A DNA stretch of 53,107 nt from a virus (lineage: Duplodnaviria > Caudoviricetes). Position numbers and translations under genes: made by a program. Below, in pieces: positions 7,099-21,880 of the stretch; the first letter of the stretch is position 1; each line of letters begins with the position of its first letter. The stretch is from the IMG/VR virus record IMGVR_UViG_3300024246_000006, positions 1-53,107 of that record. One strand, 5' to 3'. Below the pieces are notes generated by a model. It searched no databases. It was not told where the DNA came from and was given only the letters and a program-made list of their open reading frames with translations.

Positions 7099-7150
7099 AT
7101 TATGTGTGTGATGGATATTCATTGTCAACATCTTTATGCGTGCCGAGCAT
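7099..7150 (-). promoter_or_regulatory. pR-like promoter with operator-like sites
   Basis: TTGACA-N18-CATAAT on the minus strand (7128-7099); ATGCG-N5-AGCAT at 7136-7150 resembles the operators at 8518 and 8543. Confidence 0.6.
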
Positions 7151-7185
7151 TGGCCAAGCGACCGACGCCGTTTACCCTTACCGTC

Positions 7186-7626
7186 ATGGACTACGAACAA
7201 TTCATGCGCGCACTCGGCAAACGTATCAAGGCATTACGTGAAGCGAAGGAGTTGACTCAAATTCAGGTTTCGGCTGATTCCGGGCTGGATCAAGCCAGTA
7301 TCTCTCGCGTTGAAAATGGCGAGCAGGGACTAGATTCTAGGGCGCTCGTTGGACTAGCCAACGCATTGAATGTGCCGGTATCAGACCTTACCGCTGTGGA
7401 AAATACGCTGCCCGCTAACGATACGTCGGCGATCGAAGGGTTCACTGTTTGGAAGAGTTGGAGCGCACTCCCTGAGGAGACGCGCATTGCGCTCCGCCAA
7501 ATTGTTCGATTGGCTCTTAGGGCAAAAAGTGACCCGGAGGTAGCAAAGCACATCCGGCCGGCGCCGAAAATCAAAAAAAAAGGGCGAAAGCGGTCAACGA
7601 AACCCAGGAGATCAATGGTGCCATGA
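7186..7626 (+). CDS. CI-like repressor (XRE HTH, no S24 peptidase domain)
   Basis: LGKRIKALREAKELTQIQVS...QASISRVENG HTH; divergent from cro. Confidence 0.85.
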   Translation: MDYEQFMRALGKRIKALREAKELTQIQVSADSGLDQASISRVENGEQGLDSRALVGLANALNVPVSDLTAVENTLPANDTSAIEGFTVWKSWSALPEETRIALRQIVRLALRAKSDPEVAKHIRPAPKIKKKGRKRSTKPRRSMVP

Positions 7627-9732: not shown

Positions 9733-9974
9733 TCACCGGCCTGGTCTACGCAGCGATCGTGCTCGCCGCAGCGGCGCTCTTCTTCTGGTGTTGCCATCGG
9801 ATCAGGCAAGCCGGAAGCCTCACACGCCGGGCGCTCGAATCGCTCGGCGAGCTCGGCGCCGACGCCTACCCAAGCCCGACCAGCGGCGAGATCTGCCCGG
9901 TCTGCACACGCGGACCGTTCTCAGCACCGTGCACATTCGAAAAATGCCCACGCCAAGCCAGGGAGAAATCATGA
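9729..9974 (+). CDS. hypothetical membrane-anchored protein with Cys cluster
   Basis: N-terminal TM segment; CPVC...C...C. Confidence 0.55.
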   Translation: MITGLVYAAIVLAAAALFFWCCHRIRQAGSLTRRALESLGELGADAYPSPTSGEICPVCTRGPFSAPCTFEKCPRQAREKS

Positions 9975-10288
9975 CCGTGACTTATCGCTCGGAGCCGGAA
10001 ATCCACGCCCGTATGCGCATCGCCATCGGCAGCTTAGCGCTCCTCGCACTCGTCACACTGCTCGCCATCATGCAGCACCGCGACGAGCAGGCCCGCATCG
10101 AGGAAGAGGCGCGCCGCATCGCCAGCATGAAGCGCGCCGCATGCAAGCCGGCGCGTGAAGGCGAGCGCCTGCATCAATTCGTCGACACCGAAGCCGACTG
10201 GCAACCAGCCAAACGCTACTGCATCTATGTGCGCAGCATCGCCGGCATCCGCCCCCAGGTGCGCACCGAACTCGCTTCATCGAATTAG
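9971..10288 (+). CDS. hypothetical membrane-anchored protein
   Basis: TM segment IAIGSLALLALVTLLAIM; ATGA overlap. Confidence 0.55.
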   Translation: MTVTYRSEPEIHARMRIAIGSLALLALVTLLAIMQHRDEQARIEEEARRIASMKRAACKPAREGERLHQFVDTEADWQPAKRYCIYVRSIAGIRPQVRTELASSN

Positions 10289-10300
10289 GAGACTTCCCCA

Positions 10301-11002
10301 ATGTTCGCAGAGTTGAAGGCGCTTGCCGCCAAAGGCCCTATCGCAATGATGATCATCGCGGAGGGCGAGGAGCTACGCGTCACGGTGACGCAGAAAGCCA
10401 AGAAGCCGCTCTCGGTATCGGTGAGCGGCAGCCCGGAAGATCTCGATCGCGAGCTGATCGGCGCGATCACGGCCGACACCGCAGCGCCGAGCGCATCGGT
10501 GGTCGAGCAAGTGCGCACGCAGCTCTCCGCTCAGCCTGCCGAGAAGAAAGGCAACACCACGCCCGCGGCCACCGCATCGACCAAAACCGCCAAAGCGAAG
10601 ACCACGAAGCCCAAACGCGCGGCGAAGGCACCGCCGGCACCGAAGAAACCTGCCGCCAAGAAAGCACCCGCGGCGAAGAAGGCGGTCACCACTCCGCGCG
10701 CGAGCCTGCCGGGTAAGCCCGAGTGCCTCGCTGATCTCAAGGCCGCACTCGCCAAGCACGGCGACAAGCTGAACCGCGAGACCTTCATCGCCGAAGCGCC
10801 CACCGGCCGGCGCTTCGAAAAGCTGTGGAGCGGCTGGAAGGCGTTCATCGCCGCCGGCGCCAAGGTAGCCGCGGCACCGACAGAACCGGCCGCACCGGCA
10901 GCCGCTGCCAGCACGCCTGCCGACACCAAGACGCTGCCGCTCTTCGACAGCGCATCGGCGCCGGCACCGGTAGCACCAGCCGCCGCGGCGATCATCGAGT
11001 AG
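10301..11002 (+). CDS. PRTRC system protein E-like
   Basis: N-terminal MFAEL...PLSVSVSGSPEDLDREL domain, Ala/Lys/Pro-rich linker, C-terminal TLPLF; first gene of the cassette. Confidence 0.75.
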   Translation: MFAELKALAAKGPIAMMIIAEGEELRVTVTQKAKKPLSVSVSGSPEDLDRELIGAITADTAAPSASVVEQVRTQLSAQPAEKKGNTTPAATASTKTAKAKTTKPKRAAKAPPAPKKPAAKKAPAAKKAVTTPRASLPGKPECLADLKAALAKHGDKLNRETFIAEAPTGRRFEKLWSGWKAFIAAGAKVAAAPTEPAAPAAAASTPADTKTLPLFDSASAPAPVAPAAAAIIE

Positions 11003-11008
11003 ACCGCC

Positions 11009-11419
11009 ATGTCCCTCAAAGTCGAAAAAGCCACGCGCGAGTTCCGCTACAACAACATCCCGCTCGCCGATCCGGGCATCGCCATGAGCGCGGAGGAAGT
11101 GCGCACGTTCTACGCGAACGTCTACCCCGAGATCGTCAACGCCGAGATAGACGGCCCCGAGGCGAAAGGCGCGAAGCAGGTCTACACGTTCCGGCGCGCG
11201 GTCGGGACGAAGGGCGGCGACGTTGTCCCGCTCCATCGTGAAGAACCGGCACCCGCCGCCGGATCTCCCGGCTGGCCAATGCTGTGCGCCCGATTCAATA
11301 CGACGCCAGCAGAACTGCATGACCGCGTGCGCCCGCTCTTTCTCTGGATGTACGAGCAAGGCATCAACGAACTCACGATCACGCGTACCGGATCGAAAGC
11401 GATGGTGAGCGTCAAGTGA
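11009..11419 (+). CDS. PRTRC system protein C (ubiquitin-like) with C-terminal extension
   Basis: REFRYN-LADP-EEVRTFYANVYPEIVNAEIDGP-YTFRRAVGTKG core, followed by 67 extra residues. Confidence 0.85.
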   Translation: MSLKVEKATREFRYNNIPLADPGIAMSAEEVRTFYANVYPEIVNAEIDGPEAKGAKQVYTFRRAVGTKGGDVVPLHREEPAPAAGSPGWPMLCARFNTTPAELHDRVRPLFLWMYEQGINELTITRTGSKAMVSVK

Positions 11420-11622
11420 AAACCGACTTGCGCGCGCACCTGCAGGCGCACATCGCCGGCGAGGTAGCCAAGCCCCGCGGCAATGCACTGACGCAAGCCG
11501 ACGTCAAGAAGGCCCGCGCGTTCTCCCGCGCATGCGCTGCGCTCCATCACGCCGCTTGGTTCCACAACGGCGATGATGGCCGCATCAGCGCGCCGCCGAA
11601 ACACTTGCCCCCACTGCCATGA
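11416..11622 (+). CDS. hypothetical protein within the PRTRC cassette
   Basis: GTGA and ATGA overlaps on both sides. Confidence 0.55.
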   Translation: MKTDLRAHLQAHIAGEVAKPRGNALTQADVKKARAFSRACAALHHAAWFHNGDDGRISAPPKHLPPLP

Positions 11623-12641
11623 TGCTCGAGCTCGCCAACCTCGGCCGCGTGCCGAGGTACTACACGCTTCACCGCGAATCGGTGGCAGCCGCGCGCACCG
11701 CGATGGCGCTGCTTGATATCGGCGCACTGCCGGAGAACGCGCCGATCACCGCGCCCGTCGAGCTCGTGAAGCTTGGCCTCAAGAAATGGATCGAGCGCCA
11801 TACCGAGAAGCTCCACTCATTTCGTTTCCAATTGGGCTACACCGAGCACCAATTCGAGGAGTACGGCAATCAGCAAACGCCTATCGCCCAAAGCGACGTC
11901 GTCACGATCTCGATCAGCCACGCTTGCGCAGGCCAGTTCCTGATCGGGGACAAAACACAGCGCGCCGAGCGCATGATCCGCGGCCTGGGCGAGACAGCGC
12001 TCTATTGGCTCGGGCAATGCTTCCGGAATCTGACGCCGGTCATCACGCCCGAGATAACGCTCGACTTCGCGCGCTGGAATTACTGGAAAGGCGAAGAGGA
12101 CGAGACAGCCACCCTCGCGGATGCCAGCATGAACGGCGACGGCCCCTTCGAGATCCTCACCCGCGCGCAGTTCGACAAAATGATTCCGCGCTGGGCATCG
12201 AGTCCGCGCCCGCGCATCAATCAGGATCGGCTTCGCCAGCTCGCCAACCCGCGCCGGCGCATGCTAACCGGCGAGCTTGCCCGCGCGCTGGTGACGCTCA
12301 TCAATGCGCTCGGCAAAAACCGCAAGCGCATCAGTTCCGGCCAGATCGAGGAAGAAAAGCCCGCAGCCGACCCGTTGATCGTGCTGCGCTGGAGCATGAA
12401 AGACCCGACCGCGCAGATCATGGACGACTTCTACGAAGATCTATGGCAAACCGGCGAGGAGGCGCATCACTTCGCAGCGCTCGAATTCAATACCAAAGCC
12501 AAGGGCTACGCCAATATGCTCCGCGAATTTCTGCGCGGCACCGAGGCGCTCTTCGAGATCCTGAGCGCCATGCTCGGCGTGGTTCGCGTGCTGAACTCCT
12601 CGAAGACGATCGCGGACCGCTACGCGGTCGGGGACTTCTGA
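11619..12641 (+). CDS. PRTRC system protein F-like
   Basis: Position between C and B; GLGETALYWL...YWKGEEDE...IPRWA...QIMDD pattern. Confidence 0.7.
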   Translation: MMLELANLGRVPRYYTLHRESVAAARTAMALLDIGALPENAPITAPVELVKLGLKKWIERHTEKLHSFRFQLGYTEHQFEEYGNQQTPIAQSDVVTISISHACAGQFLIGDKTQRAERMIRGLGETALYWLGQCFRNLTPVITPEITLDFARWNYWKGEEDETATLADASMNGDGPFEILTRAQFDKMIPRWASSPRPRINQDRLRQLANPRRRMLTGELARALVTLINALGKNRKRISSGQIEEEKPAADPLIVLRWSMKDPTAQIMDDFYEDLWQTGEEAHHFAALEFNTKAKGYANMLREFLRGTEALFEILSAMLGVVRVLNSSKTIADRYAVGDF

Positions 12642-12642
12642 C

Positions 12643-13437
12643 ATGGCGCACGTCAAGCTGCAGATCCGCTCTGCCGGCGAAGAACGCTACCGCCTCGAGC
12701 GCGCCATCCTGATCTACGAATCGAATTTTCATGCGAGCGGCGTGCCCAACGGCCACGAGCCCTACGCGACGCTGCACAACATCGTGCGCGGCAAGGGTGG
12801 ACCGCAGCTCGCCCCAGGCGTGCCCGCAACGGCCGAGGCCTGCGCGGCGTTCGCCCAGGCGATGCAGGATCACGCGGCGTTCGCCGGATTCATCTCGCCG
12901 AACATCCTATATGTCGGTCCGCGATTGACGGCCTGGTGGCGAGCGCCGGCGCCGGCTCGAGTATGGTTCAAGGTCGAAGAAGCGCGCGAAGAGAAAACAC
13001 CAGCCTCCCAGCGCATCGGCGAGAGGAGCGCGATCACGCCGCAGCCGGGATTGATCTTCGCTTGCGCGGATTCCGAGTGGCATGTCTTCGCGGTGAAAGG
13101 CGCCGATCGCCCGGGCCCGGCAACGCAGATCTGGCGCGCACCCTACTTCAACGTATGGGAACTCGGCCATATCTGCGAGGGCAACATCGAGCGCCCGAAA
13201 CGCGTATCGAGCGACACGATCGATCGCTTCGAGCGCGCGTTCTTCGACTCGCGCTTCACACACCCGAACGCGCACAAGGGCCTCGTCAACTTCAAAGGCG
13301 GCTCGCACGCGTTCTGGCGCGCCATGCTCGATCAGCGCTGGAAACATTTCCCGGAGCGCTGCCTGGTGCGTGAAGGCGCGCACACGCTGGAGTCACTCGT
13401 GAAGACCCTGCAGGAGACGCGCCACCGTGCCCGCTAA
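12643..13437 (+). CDS. PRTRC system protein B (prokaryotic E2-like)
   Basis: APYFNVWELGHICEGN (candidate catalytic Cys) and FFDSRFTHPN. Confidence 0.85.
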   Translation: MAHVKLQIRSAGEERYRLERAILIYESNFHASGVPNGHEPYATLHNIVRGKGGPQLAPGVPATAEACAAFAQAMQDHAAFAGFISPNILYVGPRLTAWWRAPAPARVWFKVEEAREEKTPASQRIGERSAITPQPGLIFACADSEWHVFAVKGADRPGPATQIWRAPYFNVWELGHICEGNIERPKRVSSDTIDRFERAFFDSRFTHPNAHKGLVNFKGGSHAFWRAMLDQRWKHFPERCLVREGAHTLESLVKTLQETRHRAR

Positions 13438-14050
13438 GACCGATGCCCGCGATACGCTGCTGCAGCAGACCTGCCCGACGGTGATGGCGCCGAAGTTCGG
13501 CGCGTTCGCCCCGCTCATGGAAAACGGCCATCGCTTTCTGGTGGCATCGAGCGGACTGTGGCTGGAACTGCGCCGGCCGTGGTTCTATCTGCGCTATCCG
13601 GTCTGTGAAGAGCCGCGCGTGGCGCTGCCCTACGGCGAGATCGAAATCGAGACCGCGTTCGCCTTCGACCTTGATACCGATGCCGCGCCGTTGTTGGCTC
13701 GATTCGTGGAGGAAGCGCGCGACGCACTCCCGGCCGAGCACGCGGCCTGGATCATCTGGAACGACGTAACGCGCGCGCTCGAGTACCGTCCGTGCATCGC
13801 GATCGCGGCCGGCGCCGGCGGCATCGAGTATCACCGTCCGAAGCTGGAAGAACACGAGAGCCTGGCGATCGATGTGCATTCGCACGGCGGGATCGAAGCG
13901 TTTTTCTCGAACACCGACGATGAAGACGACCTCGGCGAAGTGAAGATCGCGGTGGTGTTCGGCAAGCTCGATGGGCCTGACTTCGCGATGACGAAGCGCA
14001 TCTGCGCGCTGGGGCTTTTCCTGGAAGACGAGGAGATGCCCGCGCCATGA
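13427..14050 (+). CDS. PRTRC system protein A (JAB/JAMM metalloprotease)
   Basis: E...HSH-x7-S-x2-D motif (PAEHAAW; DVHSHGGIEAFFSNTD). Confidence 0.9.
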   Translation: MPAKTDARDTLLQQTCPTVMAPKFGAFAPLMENGHRFLVASSGLWLELRRPWFYLRYPVCEEPRVALPYGEIEIETAFAFDLDTDAAPLLARFVEEARDALPAEHAAWIIWNDVTRALEYRPCIAIAAGAGGIEYHRPKLEEHESLAIDVHSHGGIEAFFSNTDDEDDLGEVKIAVVFGKLDGPDFAMTKRICALGLFLEDEEMPAP

Positions 14051-14850
14051 TCCATAAGCTGCGCCTCGATCGCTATGACGAGCGCCTGAGAGTGCGGCTC
14101 GTGGGCTGTGGCGGCAACGGCTCGCAGATGCTGACCGGGCTCGCGCGTCTGCATAAGGCGCTGGTTGCACTCGGCCAACGCGGACTTTATGTCATCGCCA
14201 ACGATCCGGACACGGTATCGCCGGCGAACATCGGTAGGCAGCTTTTCTCACCGGGCGACGTCGGCCGCAACAAGGCCGTGGTGCTGGTGCACCGCTTGAA
14301 TTCGTTCTTCGGGCTCGACTGGAATGCCGAGCCCTTCGCGTTCAAGTTCACCGACAAGACGGCTGACATCCTGGTGAGCTGCGTCGATTCGCGCAAGTCG
14401 CGCGCATCGATCGACGATGCATTGACCCGCCGCGGCATGTTCAACAACAACCGCCCGGGCCCCGAGTATTGGCTCGACCTGGGAAATCGCGCCGCCGACG
14501 GCCAGATGGTGCTCGGCCAGCCGGCGCAGAACAAGCGCTGGGCGGCGGACAAGACGCGGCTGCCGACAGTCGCGGAGTTGTTTCCGGAGATCGTGGATAC
14601 ACACCACAAAGAAGATACCGCGCCGAGCTGCTCGCTCGCCGAGGCGCTGCAAAAGCAGGAGCTCTTCGTTAACCAGGCGGTCGTCACCCAGGCGCTCGCA
14701 CTGCTCTGGCAGGTCCTGCGCCACGGCGAGACCGACTGGCACGGCGCATTCGTGAATTGCAAGTCCGGCCGCGTCATACCGCTGCCGGTGGATCCCGCAG
14801 CATGGCAACGGCTGCGGGAAGGTCAACAACAGAAGAAGGGAAAATGGTAA
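14047..14850 (+). CDS. PRTRC ThiF-family E1-like adenylyltransferase
   Basis: VGCGGNG nucleotide-binding loop, DPDTVSPANIGRQ, SCVD, LDLGN and PSCSLAEAL (candidate catalytic Cys). Confidence 0.9.
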   Translation: MIHKLRLDRYDERLRVRLVGCGGNGSQMLTGLARLHKALVALGQRGLYVIANDPDTVSPANIGRQLFSPGDVGRNKAVVLVHRLNSFFGLDWNAEPFAFKFTDKTADILVSCVDSRKSRASIDDALTRRGMFNNNRPGPEYWLDLGNRAADGQMVLGQPAQNKRWAADKTRLPTVAELFPEIVDTHHKEDTAPSCSLAEALQKQELFVNQAVVTQALALLWQVLRHGETDWHGAFVNCKSGRVIPLPVDPAAWQRLREGQQQKKGKW

Positions 14851-15143
14851 TGGAAAACCAGCACACACTGATCAGCGGCTATCGCGATCTGACGAAACCG
14901 GAGATCGATGCCATCAACGAGGTGAAGAAACTCGCGGAGAGCTGCGGTGCGCTCATCGGTGCATTCGAAGGCCTGGCGCAATGCAAGGCGGCTGATTCGT
15001 CATTGCCCTATGCGCAGATCGTGAACGCATACGGTCTCTCGCAGCGGCTCCCCGATCCGCGCTGGCTTGCGCTCGCGAAGACCGATCTGCAGCGCGGATT
15101 GATGGCGCTCACGCGCGCCATAGCGAAACCGGACGGGTTCTGA
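14850..15143 (+). CDS. acb2: Acb2-like anti-CBASS cyclic-oligonucleotide sponge
   Basis: MENQHTLISGYRDLTKPEIDAINEVK...RWLALAKTDLQRGLMALTRAIAKPDGF matches the Acb2 signature; TAATG overlap with ThiF. Confidence 0.85.
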   Translation: MENQHTLISGYRDLTKPEIDAINEVKKLAESCGALIGAFEGLAQCKAADSSLPYAQIVNAYGLSQRLPDPRWLALAKTDLQRGLMALTRAIAKPDGF

Positions 15144-15146
15144 TCC

Positions 15147-15653
15147 GTGACGCTGGTCGCATTCACCGTCGACGAAGCCAACGCGTTGAACGCCTCGCAC
15201 CGGTTCAATTGCGGACCTGCAGCGCTTTGCGCTGTGACGGGTCTGCGACCGATCGAGGCGCTTGCCGTCATTCCGCATTTCGCGGAGCGCGGCTATACCA
15301 ATCCGAAAATGATGGCGGCGGCGCTCACGGCGATCGGTGCGTCGTGGCGGCGTACGTGGGAATGCAGCGACGCAATTAAGCCAGAGCACCCGCAATTTCC
15401 TGAGTTTGGATTGGTCCGCGTTCAATGGGATGGCCCTTGGTGCAAGCCAGGCGTACCGGCCGTCGCGCGTTACTTTCATTCCCATTGGATTGCCGTCGAC
15501 GACGCACGAATCTTCGACATCAACTGCCTGTGCGTCGGCGGCTGGGTGCCGTGGCTCGAATGGGATACGCAAGTCGTGCCGTGGCTCCTCAAGGACACCA
15601 AAGCATCCGGTAATTGGTGGCCGACGAAATGTTGGGATGTCGCACGGCCATGA
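15147..15653 (+). CDS. putative papain-like (C39-like) cysteine peptidase
   Basis: NCGPAAL, HWIAV and IFD give Cys-His-Asp in papain-like order. Confidence 0.5.
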   Translation: MTLVAFTVDEANALNASHRFNCGPAALCAVTGLRPIEALAVIPHFAERGYTNPKMMAAALTAIGASWRRTWECSDAIKPEHPQFPEFGLVRVQWDGPWCKPGVPAVARYFHSHWIAVDDARIFDINCLCVGGWVPWLEWDTQVVPWLLKDTKASGNWWPTKCWDVARP

Positions 15654-15937
15654 CCGCGCTCTCCATCTTCGGCGCGACCTTCGTCCTGGTGCTGGCGCTC
15701 GGCCTGCAGAGCCTGAACGTCAACCGCGGTCACTATGCAGCGGCGTTTCTCACGAGTCTCGCGATCAGCTCCGCGCAGCTCGCCATCCTCAAGATCGTGC
15801 CGGCAGCCGAAGCGCCGGTTGATTACCTCGCTTTCATGTCCGGCGGTCCGCTTGGCATCGTCTGCGCGATGTACCTGCACCCGTTGATCGTCCGGCGTTT
15901 GTTCAATCGCAGCACCAACAAGGAGTCAAGTTCATGA
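15650..15937 (+). CDS. small multi-pass membrane protein
   Basis: Three hydrophobic segments; ATGA overlaps. Confidence 0.65.
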   Translation: MTALSIFGATFVLVLALGLQSLNVNRGHYAAAFLTSLAISSAQLAILKIVPAAEAPVDYLAFMSGGPLGIVCAMYLHPLIVRRLFNRSTNKESSS

Positions 15938-16548
15938 ACGAGGCTGTTGCAACACACGTCATCCCAACCGCGCCAGGCACGCCGTTCGCCGGCGGTTTCT
16001 ACGTCGGCCGCATCCGCGTGCTCGACGATGTTTGCGCGCTCATTCTCGCGCCGAAATTCGAAGGCGAACGCGCGCCGGGGATCTGGAACAAGCGCAGCAC
16101 CAATCTCGAAGCAGCCATGAGCTTCTTCGATGGCGAGGCCAATACGTGCGCCATGGCTGGCACCGGCAGCGAGTTGGCCGCCTGGGCGCTCGCGCTTTCG
16201 ATCGGCGGCTTCACCGATTGGCACATCCCGAGCCGCGACGAGCTCGAGCTTTGCTACCGCAACTTGAAGCCCGGCACCGAAACGAACTATTGCTTCCGCG
16301 GCGACAATCCCTCGAGCGTGCCCGTCGGCCATTCGTATCTCCGCGATGCGCCCGCTCAGTGCCAGATCGAAGCATTCCGCGCCGGCGGCGCCGAGGCGTT
16401 CGAAGAAGAATACTACTGGTCATCCACGCAGTACGCCGGCCTCGCCGGCTGTGCCTGGGCGCAGGCTTTCGACGACGGCAGCCAGGACCTCTACCTCAAG
16501 GGCCTCGAGTTCAGGGCCCGAGCTGTCCGCAGATTGATCATTCGCTGA
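15934..16548 (+). CDS. DGR target 1 (DUF1566/CLec-like)
   Basis: GFTDWHIPSRDEL, YWSST and RARAVRR motifs; C-terminal VR1. Confidence 0.9.
   Translation: MNEAVATHVIPTAPGTPFAGGFYVGRIRVLDDVCALILAPKFEGERAPGIWNKRSTNLEAAMSFFDGEANTCAMAGTGSELAAWALALSIGGFTDWHIPSRDELELCYRNLKPGTETNYCFRGDNPSSVPVGHSYLRDAPAQCQIEAFRAGGAEAFEEEYYWSSTQYAGLAGCAWAQAFDDGSQDLYLKGLEFRARAVRRLIIR
16426..16534 (+). repeat. DGR variable repeat VR1
   Basis: 109-nt ungapped match to TR; 18 mismatches at TR adenines and 1 non-A mismatch near the 3' end. Confidence 0.95.
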
Positions 16549-16584
16549 TTCAGTCATTCACCCATTTTTCGCGGAGCGATTTTT

Positions 16585-17082
16585 ATGAACAATGATTTGA
16601 CTGCCCAGCACCTAGCGCAGGAAGTGACCGTCACGCTTCCGCTTGGCGTGGTACTGCGCATCGCCGATCAATCGATCCCGGCCACTTTGGTTTCGGCATC
16701 GGCATTGATCCTGTCCCGGTTCGACGATCTGCCGGCGATCGGCGCCGAGTACGGAGGCGGCATGTTCGCCGGCATCACCGTTCACGAGAACGCGCCGGCA
16801 GCGCTCGTTCTGCTGCCCGGCTCGCGCGAGAACGTCATCTGGAGCGATGCCAAGCAGTGGGCCGGCGAGCAAGGCGGCGAGCTGCCATCGCGTTTTGATC
16901 AGCTTGCGCTCTTCAAGAACCTGAAGCGCGAATTCGCCGGCGAGTGGTATTGGAGCGGCGAACAGTCCGCCGGCACCGCCTACTATGCCTGGGCGCAGGG
17001 TTTCCACTACGGCGACCAGCTCTACTACCGCAAGGACCTCAAGGTCAGGGCCCGAGCTGTCCGCAGATTGGTGATTCGGTAA
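16585..17082 (+). CDS. DGR target 2 (DUF1566/CLec-like)
   Basis: LPSR, YWSG and RARAVRR motifs; C-terminal VR2. Confidence 0.9.
   Translation: MNNDLTAQHLAQEVTVTLPLGVVLRIADQSIPATLVSASALILSRFDDLPAIGAEYGGGMFAGITVHENAPAALVLLPGSRENVIWSDAKQWAGEQGGELPSRFDQLALFKNLKREFAGEWYWSGEQSAGTAYYAWAQGFHYGDQLYYRKDLKVRARAVRRLVIR
16963..17068 (+). repeat. DGR variable repeat VR2
   Basis: 106-nt ungapped match to TR; 14 mismatches at TR adenines and 3 non-A mismatches. Confidence 0.95.
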
Positions 17083-17116
17083 TTCAACCATTCGATCATT
17101 GAAGGGAGTTTTTTTC

Positions 17117-17554
17117 ATGGCCAAGAAATCGACCAAACGTCCAGCAGCAAAACGCGGAGCGCCTGTCTCGCGCGCGCGTAAACCCGCCGCGCCGGCGAAG
17201 GTGCCCAAGATCGGCGCCAAGTACCAGGGCGGCATCTACGCCGGCCTGACGCTCCATGACAACAAGCCGATGGCGCTCATCCTGCTGCCTGGCGAGCGCG
17301 AGAACATCACCTGGGATGATGCCGTAAAGTGGGCCGCAAAATACAAAGGCAAACTGCCATCGCGCGTCGATCAGCTCGTGCTCCGCGAGAATGTCAAAGC
17401 ACAATTCAAGGACGCGACCTATTGGTCGGGAGCTCAGTACGCCGGCAACGACGCCTATGCCTGGGCGCAGCATTTCAACTACGGCACCCAGAACACCTAC
17501 CACAAGGACGACGAGTTCAGGGCCCGAGCCGTCCGCAGATTGCCCATTGAGTAA
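17117..17554 (+). CDS. DGR target 3 (DUF1566/CLec-like, basic N-terminal tail)
   Basis: GGGAG RBS; paralogous to target 2; C-terminal VR3. Confidence 0.9.
   Translation: MAKKSTKRPAAKRGAPVSRARKPAAPAKVPKIGAKYQGGIYAGLTLHDNKPMALILLPGERENITWDDAVKWAAKYKGKLPSRVDQLVLRENVKAQFKDATYWSGAQYAGNDAYAWAQHFNYGTQNTYHKDDEFRARAVRRLPIE
17435..17540 (+). repeat. DGR variable repeat VR3
   Basis: 106-nt ungapped match to TR; 7 mismatches, all at TR adenines. Confidence 0.95.
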
Positions 17555-17581
17555 TTCGCTCATTCGATAATTTCCATCAGC

Positions 17582-17959
17582 ATGGCTCTTCACACTGATT
17601 TGCCCATCTACAAAGTCGGCTACGACCTGCTCGGCGTAGCCGTCGACTCGATCAAGGACATGCCGCGCGACGTCAAGCAGGCGCTCGGCTCCAAGATCCG
17701 CGACGAGTGCATCGACTCGATGCTGCTGATCCGCAAAGCCAATATCGCCGCCGACAAGGAGCCGCACCTTTTGTCCTTGCTCGAGCGGCTGGAGGTTGTG
17801 GAGCTGCTGGTCCGCGTCTCGCGCGACAAACGCTTCATTACCACCAAGCGCTACGCGGCCGTTATCGAGCTGACGCAACGGATCGGAAAACAGGCGAACG
17901 GCTGGCGCAATCAACAACGCCTGCTGCACCCTCGTCAAGGCGAGGATGCCCGTGCGTGA
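17582..17959 (+). CDS. avd: DGR accessory variability determinant (four-helix bundle)
   Basis: LPIYK...MPRDVKQALG...IGKQANGW; lies between the targets and TR/RT. Confidence 0.85.
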   Translation: MALHTDLPIYKVGYDLLGVAVDSIKDMPRDVKQALGSKIRDECIDSMLLIRKANIAADKEPHLLSLLERLEVVELLVRVSRDKRFITTKRYAAVIELTQRIGKQANGWRNQQRLLHPRQGEDARA

Positions 17960-19355
17960 TCATCAATCTGGTCGTGCCGCTGGCCCGCTGTTCGGGGCCA
18001 CCGCCATGCGCGCAACGGATACCTCCGGCCAGCTCGATCTCTTTGGCGGCCGGGACGCGTCCGGCGCAGTTTCCCCGCCGATCGAGGCCGGTCCGGATCT
18101 TCGGCGGGGCGATGTAGATAGCACGATAGGACGCAGTACGCCGGCAACGACGACTATGCCTGGGCGCAGAATTTCAACAACGGCAACCAGAACAACTACC
18201 ACAAGGACAACAAGTTCAGGGCCCGAGCCGTCCGCAGATGGATCTGCCAGTCACCACCATGCTGATTTTTCTTTCGCGGAGTTAGTCGCCGCCTACTTCG
18301 ATTGCCGGCGCACCAAGAGAAACTCCGCCAACGCGCTCGCCTTCGAGCAGGATCTCGAGCGCAATCTCACCGAGCTCTTCGAGGAGCTGGCCGCGCGATC
18401 GTACAAGCCCGGCCGCGCAATCTGCTTCGTCATCACCAGGCCCAAGCCGCGCGAAGTGTGGGCCGCGCAATCCCGCGATCGTGTCGTGCATCATCTGCTC
18501 TACAACCGGATCGCGGCACGCTTCGAGAACGCGTTCATCGCCGATAGCTGCGCCTGTATTCCGGGCCGGGGCACGCTCTATGCAGCGCGCCGGCTCGAGG
18601 CGAAGATCAGGAGCCATACCGAAAACTGGTCGCGCCACGCCTTCTATCTGAAATGCGATCTCGCCAATTTCTTCGTCAGCATCGACAAGCGCATCCTGAG
18701 CGTCCAGCTCGCCGCGCGCGTCACGGAGCCCTTCTGGTCATGGTTGACCGACGTCGTGCTGTTCCACGATCCGCGCGTCGACGTCCGGATGCACGCAACG
18801 CCGGCACTGCTCGCCCTGGTCCCGGCGCATAAGCGGCTTGCCAATCAGCCCGCGCACCTGGGCCTGCCGATCGGCAACCTGTCATCGCAATTCTTCGCCA
18901 ACGTCTATCTCGATGCGCTGGATCAGCATGTCAAGCACCGGCTGCGCGCACGGCACTACGTGCGCTATGTCGATGATTTCATCCTGCTCCACGATTCACC
19001 GCAATGGCTGAACGGGGCGCTCAGTGACATCAGGGAATTTCTGCCGCGCGAGCTCGGCGTTCGATTGAATGAAAGCAAGACGGTCCTGCAGCCGATCGAT
19101 CGCGGCGTCGATTTTGTCGGCCATGTGATCAAGCCGTGGCGCCGGTCGATCCGGCTGCGCACCGTGCGATCGGCGTTCAATCGCCTCGCCGGCATGGCGC
19201 AGGAGCACGTCTACGAGTCCGCGAATAGCTACTTCGGCATGCTGCGCCAGGCGCCGGCGAGCCACCACGAACGGGCGCAGTTCGCGAATCTGCTTCGCCG
19301 GCGTGGACAGGTCGTCGATCGCGCGTTCACCAAGACGTTTCGGAGAATCGCATGA
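17946..19355 (+). CDS. DGR reverse transcriptase (start uncertain)
   Basis: PKPREVWAA, RDRVVHH, LKCDLANFF, GLPIGNLSSQFFANVYL, YVRYVDD and GVDFVG motifs. Confidence 0.95.
   Translation: MPVRDHQSGRAAGPLFGATAMRATDTSGQLDLFGGRDASGAVSPPIEAGPDLRRGDVDSTIGRSTPATTTMPGRRISTTATRTTTTRTTSSGPEPSADGSASHHHADFSFAELVAAYFDCRRTKRNSANALAFEQDLERNLTELFEELAARSYKPGRAICFVITRPKPREVWAAQSRDRVVHHLLYNRIAARFENAFIADSCACIPGRGTLYAARRLEAKIRSHTENWSRHAFYLKCDLANFFVSIDKRILSVQLAARVTEPFWSWLTDVVLFHDPRVDVRMHATPALLALVPAHKRLANQPAHLGLPIGNLSSQFFANVYLDALDQHVKHRLRARHYVRYVDDFILLHDSPQWLNGALSDIREFLPRELGVRLNESKTVLQPIDRGVDFVGHVIKPWRRSIRLRTVRSAFNRLAGMAQEHVYESANSYFGMLRQAPASHHERAQFANLLRRRGQVVDRAFTKTFRRIA
18131..18239 (+). ncRNA. DGR template repeat (TR)
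   Basis: Adenine-rich master copy (7 AAC plus 1 AAT codon in the target frame) between avd and the RT core. Confidence 0.95.
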
Positions 19356-19816
19356 TCCTTGCGGACGTGATGCGTATCTACGACGGCTCAAGCGGCGACG
19401 ACACCAAGGCGCTGTACGCGCGCCTCGAGCAGCTCGGCCCAAACGGGCAGATCGCGCTCAATCTGTTCCGCGCGCAGAAGAACTCCGCGCGCGCCAAGGT
19501 ATATCGCGGAGGCGGCTACCGCGGGAAAGCCTATGACCGCAAGCAATGGGCGATCGACAATCTGGCCGCAATTCTCACCCAGCATGCCGAAGCGTGCGCG
19601 ATCCGTTGGGGCTGGGGAATCGACGACGCTCAGGAATATCACCGAGTCGTTCTTTACATTGATCTGCCGATCGGTCAGGTCAGTTTTCACACAGCGATGC
19701 GCGGCGCCGGACCGGACTACCCGGGTGAATGGGATGGCATCCCCAACGCGTCGATCGGCCGCATCTGCAGTTGGTGCGCACGCCTGCTGTCAGCACAAGC
19801 GGAGGTCCAACCATGA
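19352..19816 (+). CDS. hypothetical phage protein
   Basis: ATGA overlap with the RT. Confidence 0.7.
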   Translation: MILADVMRIYDGSSGDDTKALYARLEQLGPNGQIALNLFRAQKNSARAKVYRGGGYRGKAYDRKQWAIDNLAAILTQHAEACAIRWGWGIDDAQEYHRVVLYIDLPIGQVSFHTAMRGAGPDYPGEWDGIPNASIGRICSWCARLLSAQAEVQP

Positions 19817-19998
19817 AATCCCTCGGCCAGAAAATCACCCAGCTCCAAGGCCTCGTCGGCACCAAAGACGTGACCGAGTGGCAGAGCAACTTCATTGCCA
19901 GCATCGGCCGGCAAAGCGATGGCGGCGCCGATACACAGCGGCTCACCGAGCGCCAGGTCAAGATCATCGAAGAAATCTGGGCAATACACTTCGCGTGA
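19813..19998 (+). CDS. hypothetical phage protein
   Basis: GGAGG RBS, ATGA overlap. Confidence 0.6.
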   Translation: MKSLGQKITQLQGLVGTKDVTEWQSNFIASIGRQSDGGADTQRLTERQVKIIEEIWAIHFA

Positions 19999-20119: not shown

Positions 20120-21742
20120 TTGCGCGCAGCAAGCTACGCCCGTTATTCCACTGACAAGCAGCGCGAAACCTCCGTCGAAGACCAGCACCGCCTGAACCGG
20201 CAGTACGCTGCGCGGGAAGGCTGGCAGCTCGTCGCCGAATATTCGGATCGGGAGATCAAGGGCTCCACGCCTGTTGCACTTCGCGCCGGCGGCAAGATGC
20301 TGCTTGCCGACGTCCTGGCCGGGCGCATCGACGTGCTGCTGATCGAGTGCCTCGATCGGCTCTCGCGCGATTCCGTCGAGCAGGAGCAGGTAGTGCGCCG
20401 CTGCGAGCGCAGGGGCTTGCGCATCATCGGCATCGCGGACCACTACGATTCCACCGCCGCCGGCCGGAAGATGACCCGCAAGTTCCGCGGCATCATCAAC
20501 GAGATCTACCTGGACGATCTGCGCGCCAAAGTGCATCGTGGACTGTCCGGCCAGATCGAGCGCGGCTTCTACGCGGGAGGGCTCGCCTACGGCTATCGAT
20601 CCATGCCGGTCGACGTCGACGCGCAGGGCAACGCGCGCGGCCACCGGCTGGAAATCGTGGAGAGTGAAGCCGCGATCGTGCGCGAGATCTTCGCGCGTTT
20701 CGCCAGCGGCGAGAGCTGCCAGCGTATCGCCGCGGCATTGAACGCTCGAGGAGCGAGCGGACCGCGCGGCGGGACCTGGTCGGTCTCCGCGATTTATGGC
20801 ACTCCGCGCAAGGGCACCGGCATTCTCAACAATGAACTCTATACCGGGCGCTATGTATGGAATCGCTCGCAGTGGGTGACCGACCCTGACACCGGGCGCC
20901 GGCAGCGGCTCGAGCGGCCGAGAGCGGAGTGGATGATTGATGAGCGCGCCGAGCTCGCGATCGTCGAGCCGGCGTTATGGGAAAGGGCGAAAGCCGCCCA
21001 GGTGGCCAGGAGCGTTCCGGAGGGCAAACGCAGCAAGGGACGCGCACCCAGCACGTTGCTGGGCGGCCTGATGCGCTGCGGGCTATGCGGCGGGGCGCTG
21101 ATAGCGGTCAATGCCAGGGCATACGGCTGCGGAGCGCGCAAGGATCGCGGGCCGCATGTGTGCGCCGGGTTGCTGGTGCGCCGGGACCTGCTCGAGGATC
21201 GGGTGATCGAAGCGGTGACGGGCCTGCTCTTAGAGCCGCGCTGGCTCGCCGAGCTGCAGGCGATGATAGCGGAGGAGCTTGCCGAATCGAAGCGGGAGGC
21301 CAAGATCGGCGAGGGAGATCGCCGGCGCCGGCGCGGTGAGATCGAGCAGGAAATCGCCAACCTGGTCGACGCCCTGGCCAAGGTCGGCTACTCCGAGGCG
21401 GTCCACCAGCGCCTGGTCACCCTGGAAGCCGAATTGGAGCGCCTACAGCGTGCCGGCTCTGGCAAGGCGCGCATAGTGGTCACCGACCTCGCCGCGCGCT
21501 ACAAGCGGGAAATTGACGCCTTGGCGGTCCTATTACGCTCGGACGTACAAAACGCGCGCCCGGCGCTGCAGGAAGTGCTCGGAGAGGCCAGGTTGACGCC
21601 CGCAACCCCTGACAAAGGGTTCTGGGCCGAGATCGCCCTGCGAGCCGACCGGCTGCTCATTGCCGCAGCCGGCGACGCGTATCTAGGCGGTGGTAGCGGG
21701 GGTCCGCTTTCGACTCCAGCTATCAGGGTTCGAATTATCTGA
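20120..21742 (+). CDS. large serine recombinase (integrase)
   Basis: YARYSTDKQ catalytic Ser, DRLSR, recombinase domain (YGY, ILNNELYTG), Zn ribbon CGLCG...C...C and coiled coil. Confidence 0.92.
   Translation: MRAASYARYSTDKQRETSVEDQHRLNRQYAAREGWQLVAEYSDREIKGSTPVALRAGGKMLLADVLAGRIDVLLIECLDRLSRDSVEQEQVVRRCERRGLRIIGIADHYDSTAAGRKMTRKFRGIINEIYLDDLRAKVHRGLSGQIERGFYAGGLAYGYRSMPVDVDAQGNARGHRLEIVESEAAIVREIFARFASGESCQRIAAALNARGASGPRGGTWSVSAIYGTPRKGTGILNNELYTGRYVWNRSQWVTDPDTGRRQRLERPRAEWMIDERAELAIVEPALWERAKAAQVARSVPEGKRSKGRAPSTLLGGLMRCGLCGGALIAVNARAYGCGARKDRGPHVCAGLLVRRDLLEDRVIEAVTGLLLEPRWLAELQAMIAEELAESKREAKIGEGDRRRRRGEIEQEIANLVDALAKVGYSEAVHQRLVTLEAELERLQRAGSGKARIVVTDLAARYKREIDALAVLLRSDVQNARPALQEVLGEARLTPATPDKGFWAEIALRADRLLIAAAGDAYLGGGSGGPLSTPAIRVRII
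21691..21702. other. candidate attP core inside the integrase 3' end
   Basis: TGGTAGCGGGGG is the reverse complement of CCCCCGCTACCA, a tRNA-Met-like 3' end. Confidence 0.55.
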
Positions 21743-21876: not shown

Positions 21877-21880
21877 GCTT

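What the first reader, a model, noticed from the sequence alone, without database searches (positions are those of the whole stretch)
10301..19355. Candidate phage counter-defence system: Ubl conjugation cassette, Acb2 and DGR-diversified binding proteins in one early operon
Seen: one co-oriented, mostly overlap-coupled run of genes downstream of the pL-like promoter. The order is PRTRC E, Ubl C, small ORF, F, E2-like B, JAB A, E1-like ThiF, Acb2, Cys-peptidase-like, membrane protein, three VR-bearing DUF1566-like proteins, avd, TR, RT. Known: E1/E2/JAB/Ubl chemistry is used by CBASS Cap2/Cap3 and Bil defence systems, Acb2 is an anti-CBASS sponge, and DGRs hypermutate CLec-fold ligand-binding surfaces. 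Inference: the phage may carry its own protein-tagging machinery, with the hypervariable cytoplasmic proteins acting as evolvable substrate selectors (E3-like) or as parallel anti-defence binders. I know of no description of this combination.
Basis: partly seen in the sequence, partly recalled or inferred. Interest (0 to 1): 0.92.

Follow-up and report, generated by a model that had tools for sequence, protein, structure and literature searches.

The report
Mosaic phage accessory operon, not system
A soil phage carries a ubiquitin-like tagging cassette, an anti-CBASS sponge and a hypermutating retroelement side by side, but related phages swap these as separate modules, so they are not one new system.

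Summary
Window 10301-19355 is one co-oriented, tightly packed gene run: PRTRC E-C-(68 aa)-F-B(E2)-A(JAB)-ThiF(E1), Acb2, a papain-like Cys peptidase, a small membrane protein, three Lcl_C/DUF1566 targets with variable repeats, avd, TR and RT. A serine recombinase follows. The window is a complete 53-kb phage record.

- Of 80 PRTRC-bearing viral loci, 5 carry this DGR (a sixth is cut at a target gene) and 2 carry Acb2.
- Of 57 nearest-RT loci with at least 5 kb upstream, 1 carries PRTRC.
- Of 80 bacterial PRTRC loci, 1 carries the DGR and none carries Acb2.
- In 21 phages with closely related integrases, the counts are 13 neither, 4 PRTRC only, 3 DGR only, 1 both.
- On the RT tree, PRTRC-linked DGRs sit in four places.

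Both modules habitually occupy the slot between a cI-like repressor and the integrase, which explains why they are neighbours. Each module is a member of a known kind:
- the PRTRC cassette is annotated in Ralstonia phage Dina;
- Acb2 is solved (PDB 8h2j);
- the DGR is the short-DUF1566-target class.

What remains interesting: phage-borne PRTRC is widespread and uncharacterised, and here its E1 gene overlaps acb2.

The parts
7102..7626 (+). HTH repressor-like gene (cI-like) at the head of the co-oriented arm; context only
   Evidence: PHROG transcriptional repressor/regulator families, best E 2.4e-11. In 49 PRTRC viral loci an S24/HTH cI-like gene holds the same upstream position.
10301..11002 (+). 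PRTRC protein E: conserved N-terminal domain followed by a Lys/Ala/Pro-rich tail
   Evidence: TIGR03741 at 32.7 bits, below the 37.95 cut-off. 41% identity over 59 aa to Dina gp07 'PRTRC system protein E'. Similar to an L071 ORF that hits PF19556. No hit.
11009..11419 (+). PRTRC protein C: pro-Ubl. The ubiquitin-like domain (aa 5-69) ends in AVGTKG-G and is followed by a 66-aa C-terminal tail.
   Evidence: TIGR03738 E 4e-27 and Prok_Ub E 2.2e-23. The G-x-K/R-G end is conserved. 66 of 78 viral homologues carry a tail longer than 40 aa.
11416..11622 (+). 68-aa ORF overlapping C and F by 4 nt each; no relatives found
   Evidence: No HMM hit. tblastn found no hit outside the window's own DNA in 80 viral and 80 genome PRTRC loci. 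BgVeeders33 has an unrelated small ORF in the same place.
11619..12641 (+). PRTRC protein F (alpha-helical domain 2)
   Evidence: TIGR03742 E 7.3e-25; PF14456 E 7.9e-8.
12643..13437 (+). PRTRC protein B, E2-like (Prok-E2_D); invariant PYFN...C178
   Evidence: TIGR03737 E 5.9e-64. Invariant columns in 31 homologues include P167, F169, N170 and C178.
13427..14050 (+). PRTRC protein A: DUF2016 + JAB/JAMM peptidase with an intact H-S-H-x7-S-x2-D motif
   Evidence: TIGR03735 E 4.4e-63; PF09436 and PF14464. Motif read from the translation.
14047..14850 (+). PRTRC ThiF-family E1-like adenylating enzyme (G-C-G-G-N-G loop)
   Evidence: TIGR03736 E 1.9e-91. Weak similarity to CBASS E1-E2 models only (E 4e-7).
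14850..15143 (+). Acb2 homologue (97 aa). Its ATG overlaps the ThiF stop by 1 nt.
   Evidence: PF24729 E 1.1e-13. End-to-end match to PDB 8h2j / 8ixz 'p26', E 1.4e-14. Junction.
15147..15653 (+). Papain-like cysteine peptidase of a family with no Pfam match (C22 / H113 / D124 invariant)
   Evidence: 678 representative homologues. Invariant C22, G23, H113, D124, N126 in 38 sequences. AF2 pLDDT 96.7. Z 9.7 to staphopain and 9.0-9.3 to ComA / PCAT1 C39 domains. Absent from the 160 other PRTRC loci examined.
15650..15937 (+). Small membrane protein with three hydrophobic segments
   Evidence: phrog_7045 'holin' E 2.4e-15. Homologues in 3 of 80 PRTRC loci and 8 of 80 RT loci.
15934..16548 (+). DGR target T1 (204 aa, Lcl_C / C-type-lectin-like); VR1 at 16425-16540
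   Evidence: PF07603 at 41 bits, above the cut-off. AF2 pLDDT 83.9. Foldseek best hit is the Legionella Lcl C-terminal domain 8q4e, E 2.6e-4. 18 of 20 TR/VR mismatches fall at TR adenines.
16585..17082 (+). DGR target T2 (165 aa); VR2 at 16959-17074
   Evidence: Lcl_C below cut-off (20.6 bits). 14 of 20 mismatches at TR adenines.
17117..17554 (+). DGR target T3 (145 aa from ATG 17117) with a basic Lys/Ala/Pro-rich N-terminus; VR3 at 17431-17546
   Evidence: Lcl_C below cut-off (28.1 bits). 7 of 9 mismatches at TR adenines.
17582..17959 (+). DGR accessory protein Avd
   Evidence: PF22296 bAvd E 1.5e-12.
18130..18245 (+). DGR template repeat (TR)
17946..19355 (+). DGR reverse transcriptase ORF. 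Conserved RT sequence begins about 18267. Start codon uncertain (17946, or 18156 inside the TR).
   Evidence: RVT_1 E 3.5e-18. 63-69% identity to RTs of five PRTRC-linked loci and 65-72% to 80 other viral loci. Start analysis.
19352..19816 (+). 154-aa ORF overlapping the RT stop by 4 nt; unknown
   Evidence: No hit in Pfam, PHROGs or PADLOC. No tblastn hit in any fetched locus.
20120..21742 (+). Large serine recombinase (integrase) closing the arm
   Evidence: Resolvase, Recombinase and Zn_ribbon_recom domains. 51% identical homologue in the same position in L005.

Best explanation
The 9-kb run is the integrase-proximal accessory arm of the cI-side (early-left-like) transcription unit of a temperate phage of Burkholderiales-type hosts, assembled from soil. 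It is a mosaic of at least four separately inherited cargo modules packed head to tail.

(1) PRTRC cassette (10301-14850), a ubiquitin-like conjugation machine. Inferred steps: the pro-Ubl C is trimmed at its conserved G-T-K-G(-G) by the JAMM peptidase A. It is then adenylated by the ThiF-type E1, passed to Cys178 of the E2-like B, and ligated to unknown targets. F and E act as accessory subunits. The cassette lacks the ParB and D components found in plasmid and ICE versions.

(2) Acb2 (14850-15143), a cyclic-oligonucleotide sponge against CBASS. It is probably translated together with the E1.

(3) A papain-like Cys peptidase and a small membrane protein, function unknown.

(4) A standard DGR of the short-DUF1566-target (CLec) class that rewrites only T1-T3.

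PRTRC and the DGR are neighbours because each habitually sits between the repressor and the integrase, not because they work together.

Shown: gene identities, catalytic motifs, A-specific TR/VR pattern, independent assortment.
Inferred: the order of Ubl chemistry, co-expression, and any counter-defence role beyond Acb2.
For: Identities.

Whole-phage context: terminase, portal, baseplate, tape measure and primase; the record is complete by CheckV.

The same E-C-F-B-A-ThiF order occurs in Ralstonia phage Dina (annotated as PRTRC) and Burkholderia phage BgVeeders33, without a DGR.

80 viral loci with PRTRC_B:
- C in 76, F in 75, A in 75, ThiF in 78.
- This DGR in 5 (L005, L026, L042, L045, L048). 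L078 is cut at a target gene, and L056 has a distant 31%-identity RT.
- Acb2 in 2, at other positions. The peptidase in 0.
- Integrase lies 190-5243 bp after ThiF in 47 loci, and the DGR fills the longest gaps. 5 of 44 loci with at least 3 kb downstream have it.

Reverse direction:
- 499 viral relatives of the RT; the best 80 were examined.
- T-like genes in 73-78 and Avd in 79.
- PRTRC in 1 of 57 loci with at least 5 kb upstream.
- A Tyr integrase follows in 41 loci and a Ser recombinase in 7.

Genomes: 1 of 80 PRTRC loci has this DGR; 0 of 80 have Acb2.

Integrase-anchored sample: 13 neither, 4 PRTRC only, 3 DGR only, 1 both, out of 21.

RT tree: PRTRC-linked DGRs sit in 4 places, and at least 2 changes are forced by supported branches.

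Module swap seen directly:
- L026 and L163 share the DGR (77% nt) and the integrase (92% nt), but not PRTRC.
- L026 and L046 share PRTRC (73% nt) and the integrase (75-79% nt), but not the DGR.

Only three VRs exist in the window, none in PRTRC genes.
Against: The PRTRC-DGR juxtaposition recurs in about four RT lineages. That could also mean repeated selection for linkage.

The integrase-anchored sample is small (21 loci) and overlaps the earlier sets, so a weak enrichment cannot be excluded.

Only 80 of 499 RT relatives, 80 of 81 viral PRTRC relatives and 80 of 279 genome PRTRC relatives were examined.

Detection relied on tblastn with the window's own proteins at E <= 1e-4, which can miss divergent DGRs or Acb2-like sponges.

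Many loci end at contig ends.

Tight coupling of ThiF, acb2, the peptidase, the membrane gene and T1 (overlaps or gaps of -4 to +3 nt) shows co-expression in this phage. That is compatible with cooperation.

A preprint reports a DGR acting on a PRTRC B gene in another phylum.

Expression timing is not known.
Confidence: 0.8

Rival explanations
1. First reader's model. One integrated counter-defence system in which the DGR-diversified T1-T3 are evolvable E3-like substrate selectors, or partners, of the PRTRC Ubl ligase, with Acb2 as part of the same unit.
For: All genes are co-oriented and tightly packed. PRTRC followed by targets, avd and RT recurs in 5 of 80 viral loci, plus L180 among the genome loci, in about 4 RT lineages. 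A preprint reports a DGR diversifying a gene annotated PRTRC B in a Phocaeicola prophage. T3 and E both carry Lys/Ala/Pro-rich segments.
Against: PRTRC lacks the DGR in 39 of 44 viral loci with enough downstream sequence, in 79 of 80 genome loci, and in Dina and BgVeeders33. The DGR clade lacks PRTRC in 56 of 57 loci. All four combinations occur among phages with closely related integrases, at about the counts expected under independence. T1 orthologues from PRTRC-free phages are no more distant than those from PRTRC phages. There is no VR in any PRTRC gene. Acb2 accompanies PRTRC in 2 of 80 viral and 0 of 80 genome loci.
Confidence: 0.04
2. Anti-defence island. The modules are inherited separately but converge in function. 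PRTRC, the Cys peptidase and the DGR-diversified binders each counter host immunity early in infection, alongside Acb2. This overlaps the best explanation on anatomy and differs only on function.
For: Acb2 is a bona fide anti-CBASS family member and overlaps the PRTRC E1 gene. The flanks of PRTRC in 80 phages are hypervariable and mostly of unknown function: 14 Pfam families matched across 47 representative neighbour proteins, all integrase, HNH, HTH, AAA or DUF domains. This is typical of accessory hotspots. The peptidase shares a fold with C39 peptidases, staphopain and Josephin-type deubiquitinases.
Against: No recognised anti-defence family other than Acb2 was found among the neighbours. 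Acb2 is near PRTRC in only 2 of 80 other viral loci. PRTRC proteins match no PADLOC model except a weak E1 similarity. That says nothing about counter-defence. No expression or phenotype data exist.
Confidence: 0.3
3. PRTRC is not a lytic-phase weapon. It is a lysogen-expressed or maintenance module: superinfection exclusion or defence of the lysogen, like lambda rexAB downstream of cI. Alternatively it regulates the element's own replication, partition or integration proteins, as the 'partitioning cassette' label in the literature implies.
For: The cassette lies downstream of, and in the same orientation as, a cI-like repressor in 49 viral loci, and upstream of the integrase in 47. The characterised bacterial Ubl systems (Bil, CBASS Cap2/Cap3) are defences (recalled knowledge). 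PRTRC is common on plasmids and chromosomal elements of Burkholderiales, where it is named after an associated ParB. PMC13366799 (passages read) calls it a putative partitioning cassette in a B. gladioli prophage.
Against: The phage lacks the PRTRC ParB and D proteins. The partition label has no experimental basis, as that paper itself says. The overlap with acb2, a gene useful during infection, argues for early lytic expression in this phage.
Confidence: 0.25

Closest known systems
PRTRC cassette (TIGR03735-03742) as annotated in Ralstonia phage Dina (NC_055026) and present in Burkholderia phage BgVeeders33 and B. gladioli prophage AB2
   Same: Same families and same order (E, C, F, B, A, ThiF), in the same place: co-oriented downstream of an HTH repressor, near a genome or prophage end. 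B is 33-38% identical.
   Different: The window adds a 68-aa ORF between C and F, then Acb2, a peptidase, a membrane protein and a DGR before the integrase. It has no ParB, whereas AB2 is reported to have one (passages read). No member of this family has been tested experimentally. Two searches for 'PRTRC' (45 and 16 papers) listed no functional study.
Acb2 anti-CBASS sponge (PDB 8h2j, 8ixz, deposited as 'p26'; the phage name PaMx33 is recalled)
   Same: End-to-end alignment of 97 aa with the 93-aa chain, E 1.4e-14. Pfam Acb2_Tad1_hairpin is above the cut-off. The Tyr and Lys aligned with positions 11 and 26 of the solved chain are kept. Their role in ligand binding is recalled, not tested.
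   Different: Here its start overlaps the stop of a ThiF-type E1 gene. Ligand spectrum unknown.
DGRs with short DUF1566-only targets (category 'd', CLec2 VR class of Wu et al. 2018, PMC5758913; passages read). The archetype DGR is Bordetella phage BPP-1.
   Same: avd-TR-RT with upstream targets. VR lies at the C-terminus of a C-type-lectin-like domain. Substitutions are adenine-specific. Multiple tandem targets are described for about 15% of DGRs.
   Different: The targets are not tail proteins. The cassette sits beside the integrase, far from the tail genes. The T proteins have no obvious signal peptide by eye, unlike the Legionella lipoprotein LdtA. This layout is common: 499 viral relatives.
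Bacterial Ubl defence systems: Bil, CBASS Cap2/Cap3, 6A-MBL, Bub
   Same: E1-like adenylation, an E2-like Cys enzyme, a JAB peptidase and a beta-grasp Ubl.
   Different: Not members. Only the ThiF domain weakly matches CBASS E1-E2 and 6A-MBL models (E 4e-7 and 3.4e-7). Bub uses Ser/oxyester chemistry and a serine protease (abstract read). PRTRC is carried by the virus, not the host.
Phocaeicola vulgatus prophage in which a DGR diversifies the RBP and a gene annotated PRTRC protein B (bioRxiv 10.64898/2026.10.01.756045; section 10 read)
   Same: A DGR and a PRTRC gene in one prophage.
   Different: There the VR is said to lie in the PRTRC B gene itself. Here no PRTRC gene holds a VR, the targets are separate small proteins, and the host phylum differs. 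I could not check that claim.

Membership tests
PRTRC system (NCBIfam/TIGRFAM set) | Proteins A (JAB), B (E2-like), C (Ubl), F and the ThiF-family E1, each above its curated cut-off | tested here: met
   Scores (cut-offs): A 212.3 (101.8), B 215.6 (131.45), C 94.1 (45.95), F 87.6 (58.4), ThiF 305.8 (144.75).
PRTRC system (NCBIfam/TIGRFAM set) | Protein E | tested here: inconclusive
   TIGR03741 at 32.7 bits, below the 37.95 cut-off. No PF19556 match. 41% identity over 59 aa to Dina's annotated protein E. Same position in the cassette.
PRTRC system (NCBIfam/TIGRFAM set) | Associated ParB-family protein (TIGR03734) and protein D (TIGR03739) | tested here: not met
   No match in the complete 53-kb record at E <= 0.01 and E <= 0.1 respectively. 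Dina's annotated cassette also lists neither. This is therefore a reduced, phage-type form.
PRTRC system (NCBIfam/TIGRFAM set) | Catalytic motifs intact: E2 Cys, JAMM H-x-H...S-x-x-D, E1 Gly-rich loop, Ubl C-terminal Gly | tested here: met
   C178 is invariant in 31 homologues. Motifs were read from the translations. The G-x-K/R-G end was found in 78 of 78 viral and 64 of 73 genome C homologues.
Acb2 | Family HMM above cut-off and full-length similarity to a solved Acb2 | tested here: met
   PF24729 at 51.6 bits (cut-off 27). PDB 8h2j residues 1-93 align to query residues 32-128, E 1.4e-14.
Acb2 | Binds cyclic oligonucleotide signals and blocks CBASS | not testable with these tools
   Needs binding and plating assays.
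Diversity-generating retroelement | RT of the DGR type, an accessory Avd, a TR, and VRs differing from the TR almost only at TR adenines | tested here: met
   Across the three VRs, 39 of 49 mismatches lie at TR adenines. Most of the rest are at the repeat edges.
Diversity-generating retroelement | VR at the C-terminus of a C-type-lectin-fold target | tested here: met
   T1 model has pLDDT 83.9. Best PDB match is the Lcl C-terminal domain 8q4e (E 2.6e-4), then lectin-like folds. Each VR ends 8-14 nt before the stop codon.
Diversity-generating retroelement | Ongoing mutagenic retrohoming (VR heterogeneity in a population) | tested here: inconclusive
   Only assembled contigs of two soil runs were available. 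The second run's contigs are identical across all three VRs. Contigs drop rare variants.
   DGR in 5 of 80 and Acb2 in 2 of 80 PRTRC viral loci. PRTRC in 1 of 57 DGR loci. 1 of 80 and 0 of 80 in genomes. 13/4/3/1 split in 21 integrase-matched phages.
CBASS Cap2/Cap3, Bil or other PADLOC defence Ubl systems | Proteins match the systems' models | tested here: not met
   E, C, F, B and A have no PADLOC hit at E <= 0.001. ThiF has only weak partial hits to CBASS E1-E2 (best E 4e-7 over about 75 aa).
Peptidase C39 / papain-like cysteine peptidases (for 15147-15653) | Papain-like fold with a conserved Cys-His-Asp/Asn triad | tested here: met
   Invariant C22, H113, D124 and N126 in 38 sequences. Z 9.7 (rmsd 3.1, 126 aligned) to staphopain. 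Z 9.0-9.3 to ComA / PCAT1 C39 domains.
Peptidase C39 / papain-like cysteine peptidases (for 15147-15653) | Matches the Pfam Peptidase_C39 model | tested here: not met
   No Pfam, NCBIfam or PHROG hit. Foldseek E-values are only 0.07-1. It is a separate family sharing the fold.

The most novel reading that the evidence does not exclude
Phage-borne PRTRC is a virus-side protein-tagging weapon. It is a reduced (ParB-less) Ubl ligase whose Ubl is made as a pro-protein. It is fixed in the early-left arm of well over 80 Burkholderiales-type temperate phages and is used during infection to tag host immune or phage proteins. In this phage it is co-translated with Acb2. The neighbouring DGR clade (about 500 viral contigs), with small non-structural lectin-fold targets beside the integrase, would then be a second, independent evolvable-binder arm of the same conflict. 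The stronger version, in which the T proteins act as selectors for the ligase, I put at about 0.04.
Probability: 0.25. Interest if true: 0.75.

Novelty: new member of a known kind. Interest (0 to 1): 0.33.

Why it matters
As a 'new combined system' it does not stand. It is a useful negative: tight packing and translational coupling in a phage accessory arm are not evidence of a shared mechanism.

Three points remain of value.
- A ubiquitin-like conjugation cassette with intact catalytic motifs is a common, fixed-position feature of temperate phages of Burkholderiales. It already exists in cultured phages, and nobody has tested what it tags. All characterised bacterial Ubl systems so far are host defences, so a virus-encoded one would be a new side of that conflict.
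- A large DGR clade diversifies small, apparently non-virion lectin-fold proteins next to the integrase. This does not fit the usual 'tail-fibre tropism' account of phage DGRs.
- The 168-aa peptidase defines a sizeable phage-associated papain-like family that no Pfam, NCBIfam or PHROG model matched.

Tried and rejected
- Megablast of the 9-kb region against 50,697 phage records: no match.
- Single-protein search for B in viral contigs: nothing. An alignment was needed.
- Co-fold of B + F + T1 (T1 as partner): score 0.00, mark 0.32, controls not run. No verdict either way.
- Sequencing runs: two soil-metagenome DNA holders and no RNA holder listed. Laid contigs of the second run are identical over VR1-VR3, with one SNP at 15273. 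Because only contigs were available, this says nothing about DGR activity or expression.
- Promoter and terminator scan of 6400-22000: counts at shuffle level (4 vs 3.0; 16 vs 15.4). The 'pL-like promoter' is neither confirmed nor excluded.
- PHROG scans of the small ORFs between 5766 and 10288: no hits.
- Pfam tally of 47 representative neighbours of PRTRC in other phages: only integrase, HNH, HTH, AAA and DUF4224 families, and no known anti-defence family.
- Integrase alignment A4 was too diverse to search with. It was replaced by a closer set, A5.
- Literature: 'Prok-E2' + phage + ubiquitin-like gave 0 papers. Leading-region / anti-defence / ThiF gave no paper holding 'ThiF' among the 15 of 71 listed. 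Roux 2021 (PMC8144416) has no mention of DUF1566, integrase or prophage in its main text. Tentaclins (PMC10743442, abstract read) are a different target type.
- Supplementary tables of Wu 2018 and Roux 2021 could list this DGR clade and its genomic context. I could not see them.

Full report
WHAT IS THERE

The window is a complete virus record of 53,107 bp: linear, CheckV 100%. It carries a terminase, portal, baseplate, tape measure and primase.

On the + strand a HTH repressor-like gene (7102-7626) heads a co-oriented arm that ends in a large serine recombinase (20120-21742).

Five PRTRC proteins score far above NCBIfam's curated cut-offs: C, F, B, A and ThiF. Pfam sees Prok_Ub, alpha-hel2, Prok-E2_D, DUF2016 + Prok-JAB and ThiF.

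Protein E has weaker support:
- It failed the first scans.
- It matches TIGR03741 just under the cut-off (32.7 vs 37.95 bits).
- Its N-terminal 59 aa are 41% identical to the annotated protein E of Ralstonia phage Dina.

The phage has no PRTRC ParB and no protein D.

Catalytic features are intact:
- B has the invariant PYFN...C178.
- A has H-S-H-x7-S-x2-D.
- ThiF has the G-C-G-G-N-G loop (both read).

C is a pro-protein. The Ubl domain ends in AVGTKG-G at residues 64-70 and is followed by 66 further residues.
- The G-x-K/R-G end was found in 78 of 78 viral and 64 of 73 genomic homologues.
- 66 of the 78 viral homologues carry a tail longer than 40 aa, and 11 of the 78 stop at the motif.
- Among the 64 genomic homologues with the motif, 33 stop there and 28 carry a long tail.

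This fits JAB-dependent maturation before adenylation. That order of events is inferred, not shown.

Downstream of the cassette:
- Acb2 is 14850-15143. It aligns end to end with the solved 'p26' chains 8h2j and 8ixz (E 1.4e-14). Its ATG overlaps the ThiF stop by one base.
- 15147-15653 belongs to a family with no Pfam, NCBIfam or PHROG match. The family has 678 representative clusters and invariant Cys22, His113 and Asp124. The model is confident (pLDDT 96.7). It has a papain-like fold: Z 9.7 to staphopain, 9.0-9.3 to the C39 domains of ComA and PCAT1, and about 7 to Josephin-type ubiquitin clippases. Foldseek E-values alone were weak (0.07-1).
- 15650-15937 is a small membrane protein (phrog_7045).

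The DGR is textbook.
- TR is 18130-18245.
- There are three VRs, at the 3' ends of T1, T2 and T3.
- Mismatches lie at TR adenines in 18 of 20, 14 of 20 and 7 of 9 cases.
- Avd and RT are present.
- No other VR exists in the phage, in PRTRC or in tail genes.
- T1 models as a lectin-like fold closest to the Legionella Lcl C-terminal domain.

Junctions are overlaps or gaps of -11 to +6 nt from E to T1. The 'pL-like promoter' could not be tested.

IS IT ONE SYSTEM?

(a) Starting from PRTRC. An alignment of 31 B homologues retrieved 81 viral contigs, of which 80 were kept. The same cassette is in Ralstonia phages Dina and YO105_4 and in Burkholderia phage BgVeeders33. Dina's genes are annotated as PRTRC E, C, F, B, A and ThiF, with no DGR.

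tblastn with the window's proteins on the 80 viral loci gave:
- C in 76, F in 75, A in 75, ThiF in 78.
- This DGR (Avd + RT + target, directly after ThiF) in 5: L005, L026, L042, L045 and L048.
- L078 is cut at a T1-like gene.
- L056 has a distant 31%-identity RT.
- Acb2 in 2 (L007 upstream; L024 on the other strand).
- The peptidase and the 68-aa ORF in none.

An integrase follows ThiF in 47 loci after 190-5243 bp, and the DGR fills the longest gaps. 5 of 44 loci with at least 3 kb downstream have it.

(b) Starting from the RT. There are 499 viral relatives. The best 80 are 65-72% identical, as close as or closer than the PRTRC-linked RTs (63-69%).
- T-like genes are present in 73-78 of the 80, and Avd in 79.
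- PRTRC is present in one, the same contig as L048. That is 1 of 57 loci with at least 5 kb upstream.
- Around these DGRs lie a tyrosine integrase (41 loci) or serine recombinase (7), DUF5131, HNH, methylase, ParB-like and S24-repressor genes.

So this DGR clade, too, lives at the integrase end of the early-left region, usually with one to three small tandem targets.

(c) Bacterial genomes. There are 279 relatives of B. The best 80 are almost all Burkholderiales or other Betaproteobacteria, and some lie on plasmids. One (L180) has this DGR, one has a distant RT, and none has Acb2.

(d) Matched sample. The integrases of the two locus sets belong to one family, up to 96% identical. Anchoring on that integrase gave 30 loci. 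Of the 21 with at least 7 kb upstream, 13 have neither module, 4 have PRTRC only, 3 have the DGR only and 1 has both. The count expected for 'both' under independence is 0.95. This sample overlaps the earlier sets and is small.

(e) RT tree. The PRTRC-linked DGRs fall in four separate places, and at least two changes are forced by well-supported branches.

(f) A direct three-way comparison shows the swap:
- L026 (both modules) shares the DGR (77% nt) and integrase (92% nt) with L163, which has no PRTRC.
- L026 shares PRTRC (73% nt) and integrase (75-79% nt) with L046, which has no DGR.

T1 orthologues from PRTRC-free phages are 48-54% identical to the window's T1. Those from PRTRC-bearing loci are 42-58% identical.

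READING

The arm is a mosaic of separately inherited cargo modules that share one slot, between a cI-like repressor (49 loci) and the integrase. Adjacency follows from position. The flanks of PRTRC are hypervariable and mostly of unknown function.

What the PRTRC cassette does in a phage is open. My estimates:
- About 0.25-0.3: a virus-side tagging function used in infection. The acb2 overlap favours this.
- About 0.25: a lysogen-side exclusion or maintenance role. The position downstream of the repressor and the fact that known Ubl systems are defences favour this.

The 'partitioning cassette' label in print has no experimental basis (PMC13366799, passages read).

KNOWN OR NEW

Each module is a member of a known kind.
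- PRTRC is curated in NCBIfam and Pfam and is annotated in a RefSeq phage.
- Acb2 is solved.
- The DGR belongs to the DUF1566 / CLec2 class with short targets. Multi-target cassettes are described in Wu et al. 2018 (PMC5758913, passages read).
- PRTRC is not a Bil, CBASS or Bub member.
- The nearest thing in print to the 'combination' is a 2026 preprint on a Phocaeicola prophage whose DGR is said to diversify a PRTRC B gene (section read). That is a different arrangement, and I could not verify it.

Two searches for 'PRTRC' listed no functional study.

LIMITS

- Only the best 80 loci of each search were examined.
- Detection used the window's own proteins.
- Many contigs are truncated.
- There are no expression data and no raw reads.
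- The co-fold gave no verdict.
- Supplementary tables of the DGR surveys were closed.

Noticed in passing
window 11009-11419; C homologues in L004-L243: The PRTRC Ubl is mostly a pro-protein in phages. 66 of 78 viral homologues carry a variable tail of more than 40 aa after the conserved G-x-K/R-G end. In bacterial genomes about half (33 of 64) stop at the motif.
   Followed up: partly
L084-L163 (viral contigs); window 15934-19355: A large DGR clade (499 viral relatives of the RT) has one to three small DUF1566 / Lcl_C targets. It sits beside the integrase, not among the tail genes. The targets have no obvious signal peptides. This does not fit the usual tail-fibre account of phage DGRs, and the ligands are unknown.
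   Followed up: partly
window 15147-15653: A 168-aa protein defines a family with no Pfam, NCBIfam or PHROG match. It has 678 representative clusters, a papain-like fold and an invariant Cys-His-Asp. The ESM Atlas neighbours are mostly viral. It is not linked to PRTRC elsewhere.
   Followed up: yes
window 17946-18267; L005, L026, L042, L045, L048: The RT reading frame stays open across the TR back to the end of avd, in the window and in five related loci (ORFs of 454-492 aa). The only canonical in-frame start before the conserved RT sequence in the window is ATG 18156, inside the TR. Either the RT starts within or upstream of the TR, or it uses a non-canonical start.
   Followed up: partly
window 7099-7128, minus strand: A near-consensus sigma-70-like promoter (TTGACA, 18 nt, CATAAT; 11 of 12) points leftward. 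It overlaps the start of the HTH repressor-like gene. This is a plausible divergent pR-like promoter for the replication genes.
   Followed up: no
window 17117-17215 (T3 N-terminus) and 10550-10720 (E): Both T3 and PRTRC E carry Lys/Ala/Pro-rich, histone-H1-like low-complexity segments. I did not check whether this is coincidence or a shared property such as nucleic-acid binding.
   Followed up: no
window 15650-15937; L004, L006, L007 and eight RT loci: A small 3-TM protein matching a PHROG 'holin' family recurs in the early-left arm of related phages, away from the structural genes. It may be something other than the lysis holin.
   Followed up: no
L042 13041-15380: A 779-aa ORF with no Pfam hit lies between the PRTRC ThiF gene and the DGR in one related viral contig.
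   Followed up: no
window 10301-19355 in runs X1 and X2: A second soil-metagenome run holds the region at 0.96 of sampled words. Its contigs are identical over all three VRs, with one SNP at 15273 inside the peptidase gene.
   Followed up: yes
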